Source: Fistulifera solaris (lineage: Eukaryota). From it: 64,000 bases of DNA. The DNA lies in the NCBI GenBank assembly GCA_030295235.1, contig AP026130.1, forward strand, positions 1,364,001 through 1,428,000, written 5' to 3'. The notes under the pieces are model-generated. The model ran no database searches. It had not been told where the DNA came from and saw nothing but the letters and a program-made list of their open reading frames with translations. The number at the start of each line of letters is the position of its first letter. The first letter of the stretch is position 1. Shown piece by piece: positions 18,384-28,537 of this stretch. Made by a program: the position numbers and the translations under genes.

Positions 18384-18833
18384 TCTTGTTTGATATTGTG
18401 TTGTGAGTTGTGATGACAATGCGATCGATTGATGCACTCTCTTTTCGTGCTGTGCGCCGAAAGGACGAGAAAAAAATGAGCGCGAAGATCGTCATTTTGA
18501 AAAAAATAACTCGTTGTGGCGCGCCGTCGGGGAAGCAACTGACATGTAACAATAACTCGTGATCGGCGTCTTTCCACCACTGGAACGTTCGGGAAAAAGT
18601 GTACACTCACGTAGCCCCCGTAGAAAACGTACAAAGCCGAGGTGCGTTCCCGGGTCTCCTTATTATTTTTTGACACCACCCAAGTTCTTTTGAATGCGAA
18701 GAATGTATTTTGTGCAATTTTGTGTTGTTCTGTTTTTCGCACGAGTCAGTCGTCAAGTTTTTTGAAGTTGCTCATCAGTTGCTCATTTTTTCAACTCTGT
18801 CTTCGTCTTCACTCCAGTCATAAGGCCCACGCA

Positions 18834-20943
18834 ATGGACCGAGTCCCCGTTCGGACAACGTCTCACCCCCTGGAACAAAGATCATCTATTTCCGTGGAAG
18901 AAACACTAGCTGATTTGATTGGCAAAACATATGAATTAAATCACGAGGATTTCCTTCTCATTGGGGACGGATTTCGTGGTAATATTCATAGGGAAGATAT
19001 CTGCACTCGAGAGCCGCTCGCGTTTGCGATTCTTTACTTAGGCTTCCTTATTGCTCTACCTGTCGGAATAGCCGTGATCTTGTTCAATACTATTGACAAG
19101 TCGATGGATGAAGATACCGAAGGACCGTCCGCCAGCTACATATTTCTATTCATCGCCCGCCAATTTGTCGGGCTAGCGGTAGCCATCATCTTACAAAGTC
19201 TGACAAAAATTGCAGTGCGTGGAATTGATACATGGCTTTCCAAACGCAAATTCTCATCTTTTGACTTGTTGCCATCGCTCCTTCCTGTTGTGGGCTCAAC
19301 ACTGAGTCTCTTCATTACTCAAGCTTTCGGGCGACCTCTCATCCTATTCTTTTGGAGCCTTTTTAGCAAACGATGGGTAAGCGGACCACAGCCCTCGGCG
19401 CATCACTGGCTTCATGGGCAGGACCGCCTGGAGATATTCAACGCTTCTAATCCCTCCGGTAACCTCGTGGAGAATGAGTTGTATTTGAACATACTGAACG
19501 TCGCCCTGTTCCTGAGCATACTGATATTTGTCAAGCGATCGGTAGTGCGAGTGTACCTTTACAGACAAGCATTCCTGTCTTATGGACTCAAGCTCATACA
19601 AGTCATGAAGAAAACAATTATGGTCAGAGACCTATTAAAGCTCAGCGATTTCTACAATAAATCCAGGCGCAACCATTGGTATATCCAAACCATGCCTACC
19701 AGGCACCTTAAGGGTGAACAAATCATCAATGTTCCTTATCGGATACCAGTAACCCCTGAAGGTATCAAACAAGCAATTCAATTTGTTTACAAAGATTTCA
19801 CTGTTACCGACCAGCGGCATGAGGACAGTTCAATGTGCACACTGTGGCTATTTCGGAGGGCCATGGAACTTATGAAGGTAGCCCCCTGGCTGGAACCTGC
19901 CGAAGAAGTTTACAGTGATGCACATGGGATGCAGCGAGAACCGGGAGGAAAAGACTTTGTCAACTTTTTTGAGACTGTTGCGTACCTCGCCGTTGATCAT
20001 GAAGGTTACCTTGTTGAATCGCAAGTCAGAGAACTAGTATCTGTGTTTCAACCCGATCGTAATGGATGCATTCCCGAACGTGATTTCGTCCGCATAATCC
20101 GCGTTATCTACCGAGAGCGCCAATCGCTAAGAGAAATGATTCATTGGATTGCGCACACTCATAGGCAGTTTGAACAATTGATCAACGTTGTATTCTACGT
20201 TGCGGTAGTCATCACAATCCCCTTTTTCTAAAATTTGACCACAAGGATCTCCTCTTACCAATGGGGGCTATCATTGCTACTTGTACTTTTGTGATTGGAA
20301 GTGCCTGTTCGGACTATACCAAAGGTTGTTTGTTTATTCTGATGCGACTGCCTTACAGCATCGGCGATTTTATACAAATCAATCCATCTGAGAACGTACC
20401 CTTTTCAAAAGAAAACATCTGTCGCGTGACAGAAATCACTTTGTTCAATACAAAGGCAGTCGGACTTTCAGACAACGTGGAGAAAAGTTTGTCAAACGGA
20501 AGTCACTACGGGGATCAGATACTAAACTGGAGTCAGCATCCACCAAAATTTCAAATCGTGCTTGAATTTCCGGGGAATACAAAGGACGCCTTGTTGATAT
20601 GTAAAAACTTTCAGATGAAGGTACAGGAATACATCGAGGCACACCCTCGAGCATGGCACCCGAAGAACGTTACTTCTCTTTATTCAAGACGTGTGGAAGA
20701 TAAAGACGAGTATCGATTTGAGATCGAGTGAGTGGAAACGCGTTGGCATTGTGATGGATTGCGCCGATTTCTCTGACGTTTTCTCCTTGTTGCTGTTGCT
20801 ATCACAGACACCGCTGCTTGTGGCTGGAGCTGGACCACATTTTGGAATGCAAAGAACAGCTTTTCAATTACTGCCAAAATGTCGATGTCGCTGACGTTCG
20901 AGCGCCGGACTCTAGCAGTACGTTCCAAATTTATGTACGATAA
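18834..20943 (+). CDS. MscS-like mechanosensitive ion channel
   Basis: Multiple TM segments, EF-hand-like PDRNGCI, FVIGSACS..TKGCLFIL.R.PYSIGD; frameshift at T run ~20224; intron 20728-20807 gives FEIEHRCLW...YVR stop. Confidence 0.82.
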
Positions 20944-21899: not shown

Positions 21900-23819
21900 T
21901 TACATTCCATTCACAATGGCATTTTGAATATCTTCAAACGTGACAAGGACTTCCATAGGTGCCAAAACAGGCATACGCGTCGATCCGGGGCCACCACCAT
22001 TGGGACTCATCAGTTTGAAAGGACTGAGACTGCCCTTAGAAGCAGCATCGTCCCAAGTCACCCGTTTGCGCAGTTCTGATTGCACGCCCGTCAAGAGCAA
22101 GTTCGCGATGCGTCCATTGCGTTCCGTCATCCAATCCGGATCCAAATTCTTGCGCAACAATTCGGCAATAGCTTCGACGCGGACACCTTCCGCGGGGACC
22201 AAACCCTTCTCTTGCAACATGGCCAAGAACATAAAGGCAATGTCTTCGGCGGTGGGTTCGAAGAATTCAAGTCGCGTCAAGAAACGGCCTTTGAAACCAA
22301 TATCCGATACGAGGATACGCTGCAAGTCGACAGGAGCCCCGATCAATATAACCACCGGTGCATTGTCTTGTGCCAGTGCCTTGGCCATTTCACGGAGAGC
22401 TGCCGCACCATGATCACGCCCCCGCGGTCGAGCCGTCGATGGCAACAGCGTGTAGGGTTCATTCCACACCAAGACACCTCCCGCCGCGCGCTCCAGCAAA
22501 CGACGGACACAAAAGACAGTTTTGGCTTCACTACGAGGATCCACGAGATCCGCTCGACTGCATTCTACAACGTTGCGCGTTTGCACGGCTCCCATGTCGT
22601 ACAGGAGCGAGGCGGCGAGTTTCGCGGCCGTGCTACGACCTGTTCCTGGACTTCCCGTCAAACAGAAATGACGCGGAATGTGACGCGGCTGCAATTCCAG
22701 AGTCCGACGGTAACCGCGCATTTGGTTCTTGAAGGTTTCGAGTCCGACGATTTGTGCGAGGGCCTTTTCGAGAGGATCATCGGCAGGACATAGCGCATCT
22801 TGAACCATTTGTGCTTCAATTTCTTCTTCACTGAGAGAAGCTTGCGGTGCGGATTCTTCTTGATGCGCCTTGCGGACTTGTTCAAGTAGTGTATCCAAGT
22901 CATGCACTTGCTGAGGATTGATACCAGCACTGTACAAGGCATGCGGTTGTCGTTCGGCAATGTCCAAAAGTAGTCCTAGCACAATATCTCTATCTTCATG
23001 CATACCGTCATGTTGCTCCATACTCCTTTGCAGTTCCTTTTCCAATCGTTCACACGCGGCTTGTGCACTCGCCAGAACTTCATCATCGGTCGGTGGAAGT
23101 TTCTGTCCTTGTAGCAAAGCAATCACATTGGGACTGGCTCCATCGGCAATCGCGAGATCCAACGGCGTGTTATTGTCATTGTTCTTTTGCAAAGCACCTT
23201 CCGGATAAGCATTGTACAAGGCTTCGACGACCTCGAGCGGTGCATTGTAGTGCGCCGCATAATGCAAGGGCAAATTTCCGTGATTGTTCTTTTGGCAGCT
23301 CCTTCCGGATATACTTTCAACAACAATTTCTCTACATCGAGCGGTCCTTTCTTCCATGCCGTAAAGTGCAATGCCAGGTTTCCGTAGTTATTCGTCATAC
23401 TGGCTGCTTCAGGATACGCTTCGAGAAGTGCTTCGGTAACTTCGAGAGGAGCCCGAAAGGAAGCCGCCGAATGAAGAGGCAAGTTGCCGCGATCATTTTT
23501 GATTTGTGCTTCGTGTCTGTAATAGTGAGATAAACAAGATGTGTGTGAGATTAAAGTATTTGTTGTATCGAAGAATTGCAAAGGTTAAAGTGTTCTCTTG
23601 ACGACGAATGCTAACAATGAATAGCAATCGAGGGTAATCTCTCGCTCAAATTAAGCGCAATCCTCCTCAAGCAAGGGTGAATACAGACACGAATATCGGA
23701 AAGGCAACGCACCTTGTAGCTGGATCTTTCGCTCTCGCAATCGCCGCTTTCCATCCTTTTGCTAGATCATGCAAATCAACATATTCGCCGCCACTTCCTG
23801 CGACAGCTCGACTGGTCAT
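21900..23819 (-). CDS. Ankyrin-repeat + CbbX/SpoVK-like AAA+ protein, paralog A (degenerate Walker A/B)
   Basis: Exon 1 MTSRAVAG..LHDLAKGWK, intron 23517-23712, GNLPLH/TPLDLA ankyrin repeats, IVGLETFK, GSPGTGRS, GGVLVWNEPY, GFKGRF, ERNGR; frameshift near 23295. Confidence 0.85.
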
Positions 23820-24460
23820 GTTGTTGTGATGATTTGTGTGTTGTTGCTTTTATCAGAAGATTTTCAAGAAGGTCAGTTGTATTGAATAAATAGCACACAA
23901 GTCTTGCTACTGCTGCGTTGAGGTTCTGTTACAACAACAATAAAAACGCACTTGCTGTAGGGTCGTTGCTGATTGTTATTGTTGTTATTATTGCTGTTGT
24001 TGTTGAAAGAGGCGTGATGCCGCGCTTTTTCTCTCGACACGCAAGAGACGCGCGATCGAGGAAGATTTCCCTCCCTAAATTTTTCAGTCTCAACGGATCC
24101 ATTTTCTCGTCCATAGGCCGTTGAGTACCGTTTCAGTCACATGATTAGAAATTTCGTCTACTACAAAAATGAGAGTCGTGTAAACACAAAGAGAGGGTTC
24201 AACGGGCGCGCTTGTGCGGCGCGGTCCTCTCTTTTGCGGCAAATGCGGGTCGGCGGATTTCGCAACAACAACAATACCAAGAGCAACAAACTACAACAGT
24301 CTTTCTCTTGCTGCGCTGCTGCTCGTATCGATATCGTCCTTCTCTTGAGTTTTGTCACTAGAAAAGGCTGCATCTTATCTGTTTCGAAAGGCATCAAGTC
24401 GAAGCGCGCTCCAAGTTTAGTTTCAATTAGATTCATTCATTTTGAATTCAAATTGAAAAT

Positions 24461-26264
24461 ATGTCAACGGATACAATAATGCACGATTTGTGCAAAGGCT
24501 TTGGTGCCTTGTTGATGCGCAGTAAGGTGAGTTTAAAGAAAAGGAAAAAAGTGAAGAGCCGATACTCTGATTTACTATCCGCTTCACTCAATCTGCATTC
24601 AAAATCGCTCGTCACTCAAACTACCAATCTTTCATTTATCGCAGGAACCGTCTTTTCCTGAAGAAGCTTCGCGTGTCAATGATCGCGGAAATTTGCCTTT
24701 GCATGCAGCTTGTAGTTATCAAGCTTCGCCGGATATTCTAGAAGCTTTAATTCGAGCGTATCCGGCCGGTTGCAGTCATCCGAATAGTACAGGAAATTTA
24801 CCCATTCATCAAGCTTGCATGTGGCAAATTCCTTCGGAATCGCTGGAACTATTATTGCACAAATATCCTGCCGGAGCGGCCGTGCGCAATCAGTACGGAA
24901 GTCTTCCTCTTCATATGGCTGCTTCCAATCAAGCATCGCCCGAAAACATTCGTCTTCTCATTGATGCGTATCCCGATGCATTGCATTTGCAGAATGATGA
25001 CGGCATGACACCCTTGGATTTGGCACTGGCGGATCAAGAGGCCGTGAGTGATGCGGTCATTGCACTCTTGGAGGGACGTCCGGCACCTCCGGAACTCACC
25101 AGACGTCAAAAAGCGGAAAAGTATCAAGAACGGGCGGCCGCCATAGAACGCAAATTGGCTTCCTTACAGAACACCGGATCGCGTCGTGACAATGATGTCA
25201 AGGTTGTACTGGCTGCCGTGCGACGCTTGGCCGATCGGATTCCGCATGCTCTCTATGTCGCTGGTGTCGATCCCAATCAATTGGAAGTGGCTCTTTCGGA
25301 AGCATCGCCACAGAGTGATCCGGATATCATTCTGCTCGAAACGATCCGTAAACGTGGCAGTGGTGTTCGTGATCGCGTTGAAGATCTTTTGGGTACCATT
25401 GTCGGACTCGAGCACATTAAATCACAAGTTCGTGGTTTGCGTCGTTCCGCGGAATTGAGTGACTTGCGTACGTCTCTCATGCCCTCGAAGAATTTGGTGC
25501 ACTTGTTGCCACCCGCGTTAGCACAAGAGACTGCGCGACCGGCTGCGAGTGCCATGGTCTTTTGTGGAAATCCGGGTACTGGTAAAACAGCTGTTGCGCG
25601 TTTACTGGCCAAAGTATACCACGAGCTGGGTGTCCTGCGCAAACCGAAATTTCTAGAAGTGGAACGAATGGATCTTGTGGGAAAAGATGTCGAGCAAACC
25701 AAGCTGAAGACGAAAGAAGTGCTAGAAGAAGCGGCGGGAGGTGTGCTGTTGATTGATGAAGCATACACGTTGGGGATGGCTAGTCGTCGGAACAAGGTGG
25801 ATGCGGGTGCATCGGCCATGGCAGAACTCGTGTACGCGATGCAAGACAATTCCAACAATCCCAGCTTCCCTTTGATTATATTGGCGGGCTTTACTTTGGA
25901 AATGCAAGCCTTCTTGGCATTCCAACCCGAATTACGAAAATGTTTTCCAGCTGTGTACGAATTCCCAGACTACTCATGCGCGGAGTTGGGCCAAATCTTT
26001 GGTGATTTGGCTGCTTCGAAAGGCTTTGATGTAGAAGAATCGTTGACATCATCGTTCATTGCAGGCCTTTTGGAACGCGAAACGACTCCAGCATGGCGGT
26101 CCGAACGAAATGGCCGTGTATGTGAAATGTTACTGACAGGTGTGCGTACACAAGTGCGCAAACGTATGCGTGTCGCACAAATGGAAGGAACGGATGACCA
26201 GTTTGATCCGCACTTGATATTGAAAGAAGATGTGGAGAATGTGATGAAGAGTGATTTCAAGTAG
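24461..26264 (+). CDS. Ankyrin-repeat + CbbX/SpoVK-like AAA+ ATPase, paralog B (intact Walker A/B)
   Basis: Exon 1 MSTDTIMHDLCKGFG, intron 24527-24644, ankyrin repeats, IVGLEHIK, MVFCGNPGTGKTAVARL, R.DLVG, GGVLLIDEAY, IILAG, EFPDYS, ERNGR. Confidence 0.9.
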
Positions 26265-26849: not shown

Positions 26850-27110
26850 AGGGATAATTTGCGCTCATACACTTTCGACCATAATACTGTTTTGGTAGTT
26901 TGAGGCAGACGGAAATTCCGCCTTATGCCTAAGATGTCAAACCTTTTATAGTTCAATAAACAATGTCAATTCATTCATTCATGTTCATGTTCATGTATAC
27001 CAAAGTCGATAATTATTCGATTTTATTTCCTTTATAGCGCATCTTTGTATTTCGTTTATTAAGACTAAAGTTTGCTTATTCCGAAAGACGACGCCGTTTA
27101 CAACATAAAC

Positions 27111-28537
27111 ATGACAACGAACGACTCTCCGCAGCAGGTGATGCAAATCATTGCAAATTCCGACTTGTGGTCGCATCATTTCCTTCCCTTTTTAACATTT
27201 CAAGACGTCGCTCATTGCGAGCAAGTGTTTCGTTGCATTGATAAAGAAAGAACATGGGAACGTTTGTGTGCTCGAGACTTTTCATTGCATACACAAGAAG
27301 CACCAGATAATTCCTTTCGAGCAATTCGTCGAGACATTAAGGAGTGGAAACAAATCTATCGACGCTGGCGGGCTTGGCACATTCATACGCATCACGTGAC
27401 AACAACTCAACAAGGATATGATGCGATACAACTGTATCAGGACATACAAGCTTTCTACATCAGGCAACAGCAACAACAAAGACAACCAAGGTCTTATCAA
27501 GAGTCCCTGGCTCCTGCCTTAAACAAGAAAACGCTGCAATCGTGGGCGGAGCACCCGCTTGTACCATCGGATCTCGTTGCTTGGTATGCCGTATGTGGAG
27601 GACAGCACACGCTTTCGAGGAATAACAGTGATGAGGACTTCTGGGCAGCATTTCTGGGCTGTTACACATGCTATGATGCTTATTATGCTATGCGTCTTGT
27701 TGATGCAAAAATGGTTGGACCCATGGGTGTGCACAGCCAATCCAATTATCCCAACATTCATGTCTTGGTAGCTGTTTGCGTCGGGAATCCCAGGCTGTGT
27801 TTGTCGGTGAAAAAGATCCTGTGAACGATCCGCATGGTCGCCAAGTGCGGATGCATCCCTTTGGTGAAACCGACCAGAACTTTATCGTTGTTGGGGATCA
27901 AGGCATTTTGCATTATTTACAAGAGTACGTGAAACGATTGACAACGGGAATGTTTCCGATTGCGCCCCCACCACAAGGACCAGGTTTCGTGCTCTTTCCA
28001 GATACTGGAGATGCTGTGTCCGTTTCTATCACTCACGGAATTGAAATCCGAGCAAGCGCACGGTGGTTTCCTACATTCAGCGACAACAATAATCAGCCAT
28101 GGCAAGAAGACGAGGAAGGATTGAACTTTGGCTACAGTTTTCGTATGCGAAAGGTGGATTCTTCCTTCGGAGGAACTTGTCAACTTGTATCGCGGCATTT
28201 TGAGTTCGTCAATGGCCACGGTGTAGTGCGGCGCATTGACGGAGACGCAGTGGTGGGGAAACAACCTCTCCTCTTTTATACCGGATCTGACGGCAGGGAT
28301 TCGTTTGGGTATCATGATATAGGACCTGCCGGAGACAATCTAGTTTATTTGGATACGGTGTTTACCTATCAGAGTCAAACAGGCCCCACCGCTGGAACCA
28401 CGCGTCAAGATACGCACGGAGCACACGTAAGGGGATACTTTCGTTTTATTCCAGGAACTATCGAAAAACCCAATGGTCCAACGTATGACGTTCCTTTCAA
28501 TCCTTTTCCTTTGACAGTTCCATTTCCCTTTTACTGA
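27111..28537 (+). CDS. F-box-like + SMI1/KNR4-like + ApaG domain protein (SKIP16/FBXO3-like)
   Basis: WERLCARDF, VPSDLVAWY...GGQ, FLGCYTCYD, SVSITHGIEIRAS, FGYSFRM, CQLVSRHF, GDAVVGKQPLL, FTYQSQT; frameshift at A run ~27810. Confidence 0.8.

What the first reader, a model, noticed from the sequence alone, without database searches (positions are those of the whole stretch)
21900..26264. Head-to-head ankyrin-AAA+ paralogs with complementary catalytic defects: candidate obligate heteromeric ATPase
Seen: two divergently transcribed paralogs 641 bp apart with the same architecture (HDLxKG start, ankyrin repeats, coiled coil, PHALY.AG..P, CbbX/SpoVK-like AAA). Paralog B has canonical Walker A (GNPGTGKT) and Walker B (IDEAY), but Cys where the arginine finger is expected (PELRKCF, codon TGT 25941-25943). 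Paralog A has Walker A K>R (GSPGTGRS) and Walker B D>N (WNEPY) but keeps the arginine (GFKGRF, 22284-22286). Established: AAA+ sites are composite, with Walker motifs in cis and the Arg finger in trans; CbbX/SpoVK typically read PGLxSRF. Inference: only B-site/A-finger interfaces are active, predicting an alternating hetero-ring co-expressed from a shared promoter. Neither has a signal peptide, so a cytosolic client chosen by the ankyrin repeats is more likely than Rubisco.
Basis: partly seen in the sequence, partly recalled or inferred. Interest (0 to 1): 0.82.

Follow-up and report, generated by a model that had tools for sequence, protein, structure and literature searches.

The report
Diatom head-to-head ankyrin AAA+ gene pair
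Two neighbouring, oppositely oriented diatom genes encode related ankyrin-plus-ATPase proteins, one with a standard catalytic site and one with a decayed site, that probably work together, but the neat "each repairs the other's defect" pattern is peculiar to this species.

Summary
They are Fistulifera solaris FisN_3Hh018 (A) and FisN_3Hh017 (B).

Both genes are spliced in RNA-like contigs. The homeolog copies are 99% identical in protein, so neither gene is a pseudogene.

The pair is diatom-wide: 17 of 17 metagenome loci with enough flank keep the divergent arrangement.

The reciprocal-defect reading does not generalise.
- B's Cys does occupy the clade's canonical arginine finger (Arg in 421 of 425 intact modules). 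In B orthologs that site is relaxed (R 91, K 16, C 6, S 3, other 4 of 120), while the Arg two residues upstream is invariant (120 of 120).
- A's Arg is not "kept": A orthologs carry mostly His or Asn (R in 9 of 120), and the nearest relatives have Tyr or His.
- Other loci where B has Cys pair it with His in A.

Best reading: B is the catalytic subunit and A a conserved, catalytically decayed partner of a cytosolic SpoVK/CbbX/EccA-clade AAA+ machine. It is probably hetero-oligomeric, and its client is unknown.

The parts
21900..23516 (-). Paralog A, exon 2 (FisN_3Hh018; stop codon at 21900-21902)
   Evidence: ORF and translation. Identical to the deposited protein P0124 apart from the frameshift junction. 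The splice joint 23516->23713 is present in contigs of runs X2 and X3.
23290..23293 (-). 1-nt frameshift in the window (an A-run of 4 where 5 are needed); probable assembly error
   Evidence: Reading-frame break seen. An extra base 'put in behind 23289' carries all the depth in all 4 runs. P0124 reads AAKKNNH across the site.
23517..23712 (-). Intron of A (GT..AG on the minus strand, 196 nt)
   Evidence: Sequence. A joint skipping 196 nt is seen in X2 (depth 18.5) and X3 (depth 22).
23713..23819 (-). Paralog A, exon 1 (ATG at 23819; carries the HDLAKG motif)
   Evidence: tblastn of P0124 residues 1-36, 100% identity.
23820..24460 (.). 641-bp divergent intergenic region (candidate bidirectional promoter)
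   Evidence: A gap of 525-1284 nt between the first tblastn matches is kept in related loci. The only shared feature found is (CAA)n-type low-complexity words.
24461..24526 (+). Paralog B, exon 1 (FisN_3Hh017; carries the HDLCKG motif)
   Evidence: The spliced model equals P0244.
24527..24644 (+). Intron of B (GTGAGT..CAG, 118 nt)
   Evidence: A joint skipping 118 nt with GT..AG ends is seen in X3, depth 13.9.
24645..26264 (+). Paralog B, exon 2 (stop codon at 26262-26264)
   Evidence: No differences from P0244.
23100..23506 (-). A ankyrin repeats (about aa 40-175), the most conserved part of A
   Evidence: Pfam Ank families. AF2 pLDDT about 90 or higher. Mean column conservation is 0.92 here against 0.72 for A's AAA module.
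24681..25073 (+). B ankyrin repeats (about aa 35-165)
   Evidence: Pfam; AF2 pLDDT 86-95.
22050..22679 (-). A AAA+ module: Walker A GSPGTGRS (22632-22655), Walker B N-E (22458-22463), SRH K-G-R (22284-22292)
   Evidence: The A-family profile matches EccA1 at 2.6e-33 and CbbX at 2.3e-32.
25539..26183 (+). B AAA+ module: Walker A GNPGTGKT (25566-25589), Walker B D-E (25755-25760), SRH R-K-C (25935-25943)

Best explanation
The locus holds an ancient, diatom-wide, divergently transcribed pair of paralogous cytosolic proteins. Each is built from ankyrin repeats, a long helix and an AAA+ module of the SpoVK/CbbX/EccA clade.

B is the catalytically standard subunit. A is a paralog whose ATPase residues have decayed: across diatoms it lacks the canonical finger Arg, it often lacks the Walker B Asp, and here it also lacks the Walker A Lys. 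Even so, the whole protein, and above all its ankyrin domain, is under strong purifying selection.

Inferred: A and B co-assemble into a hetero-oligomeric ATPase. B hydrolyses ATP and A is a structural, regulatory or client-binding subunit, as in the red-algal CbbX-N/CbbX-P hetero-hexamer. The ankyrin repeats hold a conserved, still unknown cytosolic client. Neither subunit has an aromatic pore-loop residue, so remodelling is probably not by classical threading.

The Cys in B and the Arg in A are lineage-specific states at a column that is relaxed in both families. They are not a conserved complementation device. The invariant Arg/Lys two residues upstream is the likelier trans-acting residue.
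For: Shown:
- Paralogy and architecture.
- Both genes are intact and expressed as modelled. Spliced joints at both predicted introns are seen in X2 and X3, and the frameshift is absent from the contigs.
- Purifying selection. The homeolog proteins agree in 558 of 561 residues (B) and 568 of 574 (A), while the variant DNA differs by about 5-6%, e.g. 26 of 406 letters. Of the 40 differences listed in A's CDS, 31 fall on third codon positions.
- B family, n=120: Walker A Lys 120, Walker B Asp 120 and Glu 120, first SRH Arg 120.
- A family, n=120: Walker B Asp only 80, canonical finger column R only 9, first SRH column K 115 / R 5.
- A's ankyrin region is more conserved than its AAA module, 0.92 against 0.72.
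- Head-to-head synteny: 17 of 17 loci with at least 2500 nt upstream and 7 of 8 with 1000-2499 nt (some loci are near-duplicates). Gene numbers are also adjacent in Mayamaea and in both F. solaris homeologs.
- Precedent in the same family. C. merolae CbbX is a 1:1 hetero-oligomer in which a Walker B mutation is tolerated in one subunit only (passages of PMC5437159, and PMC5385338).

Weak:
- Complex prediction on the helix+AAA parts gave 'weak support': score 0.35, best of 3 controls 0.00. The mark was reached by 51 of 78 solved complexes and 2 of 108 mismatched pairs. At 0.60 or under it was reached by only 5 of those 78 and by all 4 mismatches that passed. The runs agree in at least 62% of contacts and the partner's pLDDT is at least 65. 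My alignments were not used.
- Because a CbbX hexamer is solved, that pass may come from memory, and it cannot separate hetero- from homo-oligomers.
Against: - No direct evidence that A and B bind each other. The complex score is at the very bottom of the pass range.
- Conserved divergent synteny could be kept by a shared promoter alone.
- In a strictly alternating ring, B's sites would face A, which lacks the canonical finger Arg in 111 of 120 orthologs. A working ring then needs A's invariant Lys, or some other residue, to act in trans; this is untested.
- In raphid pennates A's own site is also decayed, so an alternating ring would have no fully canonical site.
- The co-occurrence of B-Cys with A Walker-B decay (3 of 3 pairs, against 3 of 20 pairs with Arg or Lys in B) is probably a single clade. 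It is contradicted by Bacillariaceae: Cylindrotheca's A reads NE while its B keeps Arg, and Nitzschia inconspicua's A also reads NE.
- The client and the cellular role are unknown.
Confidence: 0.5

Rival explanations
1. In F. solaris, B has lost its arginine finger and A has lost Walker A/B function but keeps the finger. Only B-site/A-finger interfaces are then active, which forces an obligate alternating A3B3 ring.
For: - The Cys sits at the clade's canonical finger column, which is Arg in 421 of 425 Walker-intact modules.
- F. solaris A does carry Arg at that column, with K>R in Walker A and D>N in Walker B.
- Both states are fixed in both homeologs and in close relatives.
- Complex prediction gave weak support: 0.35 against 0.00 for the best control.
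Against: - B's column is relaxed family-wide: R 91, K 16, C 6, S 3, N 2, Q 1, H 1 of 120, with at least 8 R/non-R changes on the tree.
- B keeps an invariant Arg and a Lys just upstream.
- A's Arg is not ancestral. The A family reads H 54, N 36, R 9, the sisters have Y and H, and the column changes state 23 times on the tree.
- Relatives with Cys or Ser in B have His or Tyr in A (L051, L056/L058; clades), yet both genes stay conserved there. The canonical Arg is therefore not needed in either subunit.
- With R at 9 of 120, the coincidence has roughly an 8% chance.
Confidence: 0.12
2. A and B do not assemble with each other. Each acts alone: B as a homo-oligomeric ATPase, and A as a nucleotide-binding or non-enzymatic ankyrin scaffold or regulator. 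The head-to-head arrangement is only the preserved product of an inverted duplication with a shared promoter.
For: - B has every motif needed for a homomeric ATPase apart from the relaxed second Arg.
- 33% identity means long independent evolution.
- The ankyrin domains of A and B differ, so they could bind different clients.
- The complex prediction is only weak.
Against: - The adjacency is kept in 17 of 17 informative loci across pennate and centric diatoms.
- A's AAA fold, Walker B Glu (116 of 120) and SRH Lys/Arg (120 of 120) stay conserved despite catalytic decay. This is what is expected of a subunit that still sits in a ring.
- There is a precedent of hetero-oligomers in this family.
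Confidence: 0.3
3. A is a decaying pseudogene: frameshifted, with Walker motifs lost.
For: The window carries a 1-nt frameshift at 23290-23293. Walker A Lys and Walker B Asp are replaced.
Against: - The frameshift is absent from the contigs of all 4 runs and from the deposited protein.
- The intron is spliced in X2 and X3.
- The homeologs agree in 568 of 574 residues, and differences concentrate on third codon positions, 31 of 40.
- Orthologs are conserved across diatoms.
Confidence: 0.03

Closest known systems
CbbX, the red-type Rubisco activase (Rhodobacter 3SYL/3ZUH; C. merolae nuclear + plastid hetero-hexamer)
   Same: Best-matching solved AAA+ module (E 1.2e-29 for B, 2.3e-32 for the A profile). 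The Walker A/B context, the SRH and the sensor-2 NGR all align. The red-algal form is a 1:1 hetero-oligomer of two paralogs in which one paralog's ATPase is dispensable.
   Different: CbbX has no ankyrin or long-helix N-terminal part. Its pore-loop Tyr, needed for Rubisco activation, is Asp in B, and no aromatic residue is found there in either family. The diatom proteins show no plastid-type N-terminal signal. In them the canonical finger Arg is relaxed.
EccA1, type VII secretion ATPase (9LUR)
   Same: A repeat-domain N-terminus (TPR there, according to the PMC11513918 passage) followed by a CbbX-like AAA module. It is the best hit of the A-family profile, 2.6e-33. One diatom ortholog is even auto-named EccA3.
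   Different: EccA1 is bacterial, carries TPR rather than ankyrin repeats, and keeps the R-S-R SRH. No paired degenerate paralog came up in the sources I saw.
SpoVK and the SpoVK-EccA-like clade (PMC11513918)
   Same: Members are described as dedicated chaperones with narrow clients and variable N-terminal recruiting domains (passages). This fits an ankyrin-directed specialist.
   Different: Ankyrin is not among the N-terminal domains named in the passages I read. The clade signatures are only partly kept: B has GF and A has GA in place of GY, and B has Gln and A has Asp in place of the conserved Asn.
Ankyrin-AAA+ proteins elsewhere: a plant ankyrin+AAA cluster and the mitochondrial disaggregase-like (Skd3/CLPB type) cluster
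   Same: The same domain logic, ankyrin repeats in front of an AAA+ module. Atlas rows 3 and 10 score 0.97 and 0.90.
   Different: These are language-model look-alikes only, with no alignment made. The disaggregase row carries the AAA_2 (ClpB-type) family, so it belongs to another AAA+ clade. I did not test whether plants have a paired paralog.
Pex1/Pex6 and other hetero-hexameric AAA+ rings of paralogs
   Same: Two paralogs alternate in one ring (abstract of PMC4490564, seen in the listing). From recall, such rings often have unequal catalytic sites.
   Different: Pex1/Pex6 is a type II (double-ring) ATPase of another clade. Assembly is shown there and only inferred here.

Membership tests
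SpoVK-EccA-like clade of classical AAA+ (includes CbbX) | AAA module most similar to CbbX/EccA/SpoVK | tested here: met
   B against PDB: CbbX 1.2e-29, EccA1 9.5e-25. A-family profile: EccA1 2.6e-33, CbbX 2.3e-32.
SpoVK-EccA-like clade of classical AAA+ (includes CbbX) | GY signature in the sensor-1 region (PMC11513918 passage) | tested here: inconclusive
   B reads GF, with Phe in 40 of 40. F. solaris A reads GA, and the A family has Tyr in 18 of 40. CbbX reads GY at the aligned place.
SpoVK-EccA-like clade of classical AAA+ (includes CbbX) | Conserved Asn upstream of the arginine finger | tested here: not met
   The column is Asn in 410 of 425 intact clade modules. B has Gln (family Q 84, N 32 of 120) and A has Asp (family D 76, E 37).
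SpoVK-EccA-like clade of classical AAA+ (includes CbbX) | Canonical SRH arginine finger (second Arg of R-S-R) | tested here: not met
   Arg in 421 of 425 intact modules. B has Cys. The A family has Arg in only 9 of 120, although F. solaris A does have Arg.
SpoVK-EccA-like clade of classical AAA+ (includes CbbX) | Sensor-2 arginine | tested here: met
   ERNGR is present in both A and B and is the commonest form in both families.
Red-type Rubisco activase (CbbX proper) | Pore-loop 1 tyrosine needed for Rubisco activation (PMC5437159 table) | tested here: not met
   B has Asp at the aligned place. None of the listed commonest pore-loop variants of either family holds an aromatic residue. The clade has Y 287, F 42 and H 33 of 425.
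Red-type Rubisco activase (CbbX proper) | Plastid location (plastid-encoded or plastid-targeted) | tested here: not met
   Nuclear genes with introns. Maximum 12-residue hydropathy in the first 50 residues is 0.87 (B) and 0.46 (A), so there is no signal-peptide-like stretch. This is a crude test; no dedicated predictor was available.
Hetero-oligomeric AAA+ ring with a catalytically decayed paralog | The two paralogs physically co-assemble | not testable with these tools
   Only a weak in-silico pass: 0.35 against 0.00 for the best control, which may come from memory of solved hexamers.
Hetero-oligomeric AAA+ ring with a catalytically decayed paralog | Both paralogs co-retained, with one keeping and one relaxing its catalytic residues | tested here: met
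   Synteny in 17 of 17 and 7 of 8 loci. Motif tallies for B against A.

The most novel reading that the evidence does not exclude
A and B form an obligate mixed ring that has abandoned the clade's canonical arginine finger. The basic residue two positions upstream has taken over trans-activation. That residue is Arg in 120 of 120 B orthologs and Lys or Arg in 120 of 120 A orthologs, while the same column is variable in the wider clade. B's old finger points into A's dispensable site, which would explain why it drifts to Cys, Ser, Asn or Gln. The ring has no pore-loop aromatic residue, so it would be a non-threading, ankyrin-guided remodeller specific to diatoms.
Probability: 0.2. Interest if true: 0.6.

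Novelty: new member of a known kind. Interest (0 to 1): 0.4.

Why it matters
Diatoms keep this gene pair side by side across pennate and centric lineages, so it probably serves a conserved cytosolic function that has no name yet. It offers a natural series of AAA+ modules in which the Walker B Asp, the Walker A Lys and the canonical arginine finger are lost repeatedly while the proteins stay under selection. That makes it useful for asking how dead subunits and finger residues evolve in hetero-oligomeric ATPases.

Tried and rejected
- **Whole-genome search.** Not possible; no genome is held for this window.
- **RNA runs.** No RNA holder is listed for the stretch. The runs are contigs, so depth and co-expression could not be judged.
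- **Earlier findings of this scan.** None.
- **Representative search.** It was dominated by long multi-AAA proteins. It gave no outgroup and no taxon range for dating the duplication. I used it only for the clade-wide motif tally.
[quoted passage not shown] The tally shows that the second Arg is the conserved one, so I dropped that argument. SI Fig. S3 of that paper, which may settle the residue, was not seen.
- **CbbX R194 as the finger.** This is my recollection. A search for CbbX + R194 found 0 papers. The numbering R192/R194 comes from my own count on the alignment.
- **Shared promoter motif.** Among 17 intergenic regions only (CAA)n-type words exceeded shuffles: the 8-mer occurs in 11 of 17, against a shuffle maximum of 7. 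I rejected this as low complexity.
- **Literature on this family.**
  - ankyrin + AAA + diatom + CbbX: 0 papers.
  - ankyrin + SpoVK: 1 paper, unrelated by its title and abstract.
  - Fistulifera solaris + bidirectional promoter: 3 papers, none of which I opened.
  - AT3G24530 (recalled as a plant ankyrin-AAA gene): in the two of five listed papers that I checked it appears only as a table entry named "AAA-type ATPase family".
- **Covariation of B-Cys with A Walker-B decay.** Too few independent events; it is probably one clade.
- **Pseudogene reading of A.** Rejected; see the rival explanations.
- **Neighbouring genes.** A weak MscS-like match and an ApaG domain give no functional hint.
Full report
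**1. What is there**

The window is eukaryotic. Protein look-ups name the organism as the diatom Fistulifera solaris.

Gene B (FisN_3Hh017, 561 aa, plus strand):
- It starts at 24461.
- It has one GTGAGT..CAG intron (24527-24644).
- It ends at 26264.

Gene A (FisN_3Hh018, 574 aa, minus strand):
- It starts at 23819.
- It has one intron (23517-23712).
- It ends at 21900.

The start codons are 641 bp apart. The introns sit at the same place in the two proteins, just before the first ankyrin repeat.

A and B are 33% identical (E 8e-61). Pfam finds ankyrin families and PF00004 AAA in both, although A's AAA score is only 22.4 bits against a cut-off of 21.2. AlphaFold models show ankyrin repeats, a long helix (A 180-225; B 175-197 plus 204-220) and an AAA+ α/β and lid module.

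**2.

In the window, A's frame breaks by one base in an A-run at 23290-23293. Contigs of four public runs were laid on 21900-26264.
- All four runs carry one extra base at that run. Depth with the insert equals total depth: 37.4, 41.6, 49.9 and 9.06, with one contig in each run.
- The deposited protein reads straight through the site. It is otherwise identical to the window's translation.
- I therefore treat the frameshift as an assembly error.
- Caveat: in X3 and X4 the covering contig is the 95-97% variant, not the exact copy.

The same call shows contigs that skip exactly my predicted introns. A's intron is skipped in X2 and X3, and B's in X3, with GT..AG ends. Spliced forms of both genes therefore exist in those runs.

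An exact contig of X1 (25830-26119, no differences) covers the TGT codon, so the Cys is real.

**3. Selection**

F. solaris carries a second copy of the pair, FisN_3Lh017 and FisN_3Lh018. The two copies agree in 558 of 561 residues for B and 568 of 574 for A. The variant contigs differ by about 5-6% in DNA, e.g. 26 of 406 letters. Of the 40 differences listed inside A's coding region, 31 fall on third codon positions. Both genes, A included, are under strong purifying selection. A is not a pseudogene.

**4. Family**

The AAA modules belong to the SpoVK/CbbX/EccA clade.
- B matches CbbX at 1.2e-29 and EccA1 at 9.5e-25.
- The A-family profile matches EccA1 at 2.6e-33 and CbbX at 2.3e-32.

In those alignments B's R-K-C and A's K-G-R lie on CbbX's R-S-R. 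By my count on chain 3SYK these are residues 192-194.

CbbX's pore-loop Tyr, needed for Rubisco activation (PMC5437159 passage), is Asp in B. None of the listed commonest pore-loop variants of either family has an aromatic residue there. Neither protein has a hydrophobic N-terminal stretch.

**5. Which arginine is the finger**

I aligned 470 AAA modules from the 149 representative relatives to a B-family profile. Among the 425 modules with Walker A Lys and Walker B Asp-Glu:

| Column | Residues |
|---|---|
| B's Cys455 (second Arg) | Arg in 421 |
| Two residues upstream (first Arg) | K 93, R 78, E 58, A 57, and others |
| Pore position | Y 287, F 42, H 33 |

[quoted passage not shown] Counted literally, that fits the upstream column. 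I could not see that paper's supplementary figure and I rely on the tally.

**6. Orthologs do not show reciprocal defects**

Both proteins have many diatom orthologs. The names visible include Mayamaea, Seminavis, Nitzschia, Pseudo-nitzschia, Cylindrotheca, Epithemia, Phaeodactylum, Attheya, Ditylum, Chaetoceros and Conticribra.

Motif tallies over the 120 best hits of each family:

| Position | B family | A family |
|---|---|---|
| Walker A Lys | K 120 | K 114, R 3, M 3 |
| Walker B Asp | D 120 | D 80, N 28, S 5, others 7 |
| Walker B Glu | E 120 | E 116 |
| Upstream SRH column | R 120 | K 115, R 5 |
| Middle SRH column | K 115 | G 80, S 15, N 13, T 9, R 2, V 1 |
| Canonical finger column | R 91, K 16, C 6, S 3, N 2, Q 1, H 1 | H 54, N 36, R 9, S 7, Y 5, F 3, K 3, Q 2, G 1 |

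On a FastTree of the B family, R/non-R changed at least 8 times. F. solaris sits in a supported 7-row clade that has only Ser or Cys.

On the A tree, F. solaris (Walker A R-S, Walker B N-E, SRH K-G-R) is sister to sequences with K-G-Y and K-G-H. The finger column changes state 23 times, and the Walker B Asp is lost at least 7 times.

A's Arg is therefore a recent flip at a free column, not a retained finger.

**7. Synteny and paired states**

A scan of metagenome contigs with a B alignment gave 71 loci.
- An A ortholog lies upstream on the opposite strand in 17 of 17 loci with at least 2500 nt upstream, and in 7 of 8 with 1000-2499 nt. The one miss has only 1043 nt of upstream flank.
- Some loci are near-duplicates.
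- Gaps between the first tblastn matches are 525-1284 nt.

I combined 15 distinct locus pairs, 7 pairs matched by organism name or contig length and F. solaris itself, giving 23 pairs.
- The pattern "B non-Arg with A Arg" occurs once, in F. solaris.
- The other loci with Cys in B (L051, L056/L058) have His in A.
- The other locus with Arg in A (L063) has Arg in B.
- All three pairs with Cys in B have a decayed Walker B in A, against 3 of the 20 pairs with Arg or Lys in B. These three are probably one clade.
- Bacillariaceae argue against that link: Cylindrotheca's A reads N-E while its B keeps Arg, and Nitzschia inconspicua's A also reads N-E.

**8. Mechanism**

Shown:
- a conserved divergent pair;
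- B catalytically standard apart from a relaxed second Arg;
- A with relaxed catalytic residues but a highly conserved ankyrin domain (0.92 against 0.72 for its AAA module), a retained fold, a retained Walker B Glu and a retained basic SRH residue.

Inferred (about 0.5): A is a non-hydrolysing or poorly hydrolysing subunit of a mixed ring with B. This resembles the red-algal CbbX-N/CbbX-P 1:1 hetero-hexamer, in which a Walker B mutation is tolerated in one subunit only. The ankyrin repeats would select a conserved cytosolic client, and the lack of a pore aromatic argues against classical threading.

The heterodimer prediction gave weak support only:
- score 0.35, best of 3 controls 0.00;
- the mark was reached by 51 of 78 solved complexes and 2 of 108 mismatched pairs;
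- at 0.60 or under it was reached by only 5 of those 78 solved complexes and by all 4 mismatches that passed;
- the runs agree in at least 62% of contacts, and the partner's pLDDT is at least 65;
- the tool did not use my alignments.

A CbbX hexamer is solved, so this pass may reflect likeness to that structure. It also cannot tell hetero- from homo-oligomers.

Rivals:
- the two proteins act independently (0.3);
- A is a pseudogene (0.03).

**9. What is known**

I found no paper on this family. The genes are deposited as hypothetical proteins. The closest known kinds are:
- the SpoVK-EccA-like clade of dedicated chaperones with variable N-terminal recruiting domains;
- EccA, with TPR repeats in front of the AAA module;
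- the CbbX hetero-oligomer;
- ankyrin-AAA+ look-alike clusters from plants and of the mitochondrial disaggregase type (these are leads only).

Several clade signatures are not met here: GY, the conserved Asn and the canonical Arg. I therefore file the pair as divergent relatives of the clade and not as CbbX, EccA or SpoVK orthologs.

**10. Verdict**

This is an uncharacterised, diatom-wide pair that fits a known theme, a catalytic AAA+ subunit with a decayed partner. Interest is moderate.

Noticed in passing
window 23290-23293: The window's assembly has a homopolymer undercall (4 A's instead of 5) that breaks gene A's frame. Other homopolymer errors may exist elsewhere in this assembly.
   Followed up: yes
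window 21900-26264 (run X4): A wetland metagenome run holds this locus. Contigs lie across the whole stretch at 90-100% likeness, 15 of the 47 laid at 99% or more. It also shows its own indels in the intergenic region. This points to the same or a closely related Fistulifera-like diatom in that sample.
   Followed up: no
window 23820-24460 and the intergenic parts of 16 loci: (CAA)n/(TTG)n-type words are shared by most A-B intergenic regions: the 8-mer occurs in 11 of 17, against a shuffle maximum of 7. This is probably a general low-complexity feature of diatom upstream regions, not a specific element.
   Followed up: partly
A family alignment A2, positions 436 and 451 of P0124 (window about 22317-22319 and 22272-22274): The A family has two nearly invariant arginines flanking the SRH (R436 and R451, each 37 of 40) that B lacks at the aligned places. 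They are candidates for a relocated trans-acting residue.
   Followed up: no
Representative hits P0258-P0406: Most strong relatives of the AAA module are very long proteins with 3-8 tandem CbbX-like AAA modules. Some also match the ankyrin part of the query, in up to 30 matched stretches. Fused multi-module forms are common among these hits.
   Followed up: partly
window 18642-20731 and 27072-28537: The neighbouring ORFs give only a weak MscS-channel beta-domain match (E 0.0013, below the cut-off) and an ApaG/DUF525 domain (E 1.6e-07). There is no obvious functional link to the pair.
   Followed up: partly
A ortholog list, (P0240, P0151): Two A-family hits carry non-diatom labels: one names Alexandrium tamarense, and the other is truncated to 'Kryp...'. 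These may be contamination or diatom-derived sequences in dinoflagellate data sets.
   Followed up: no
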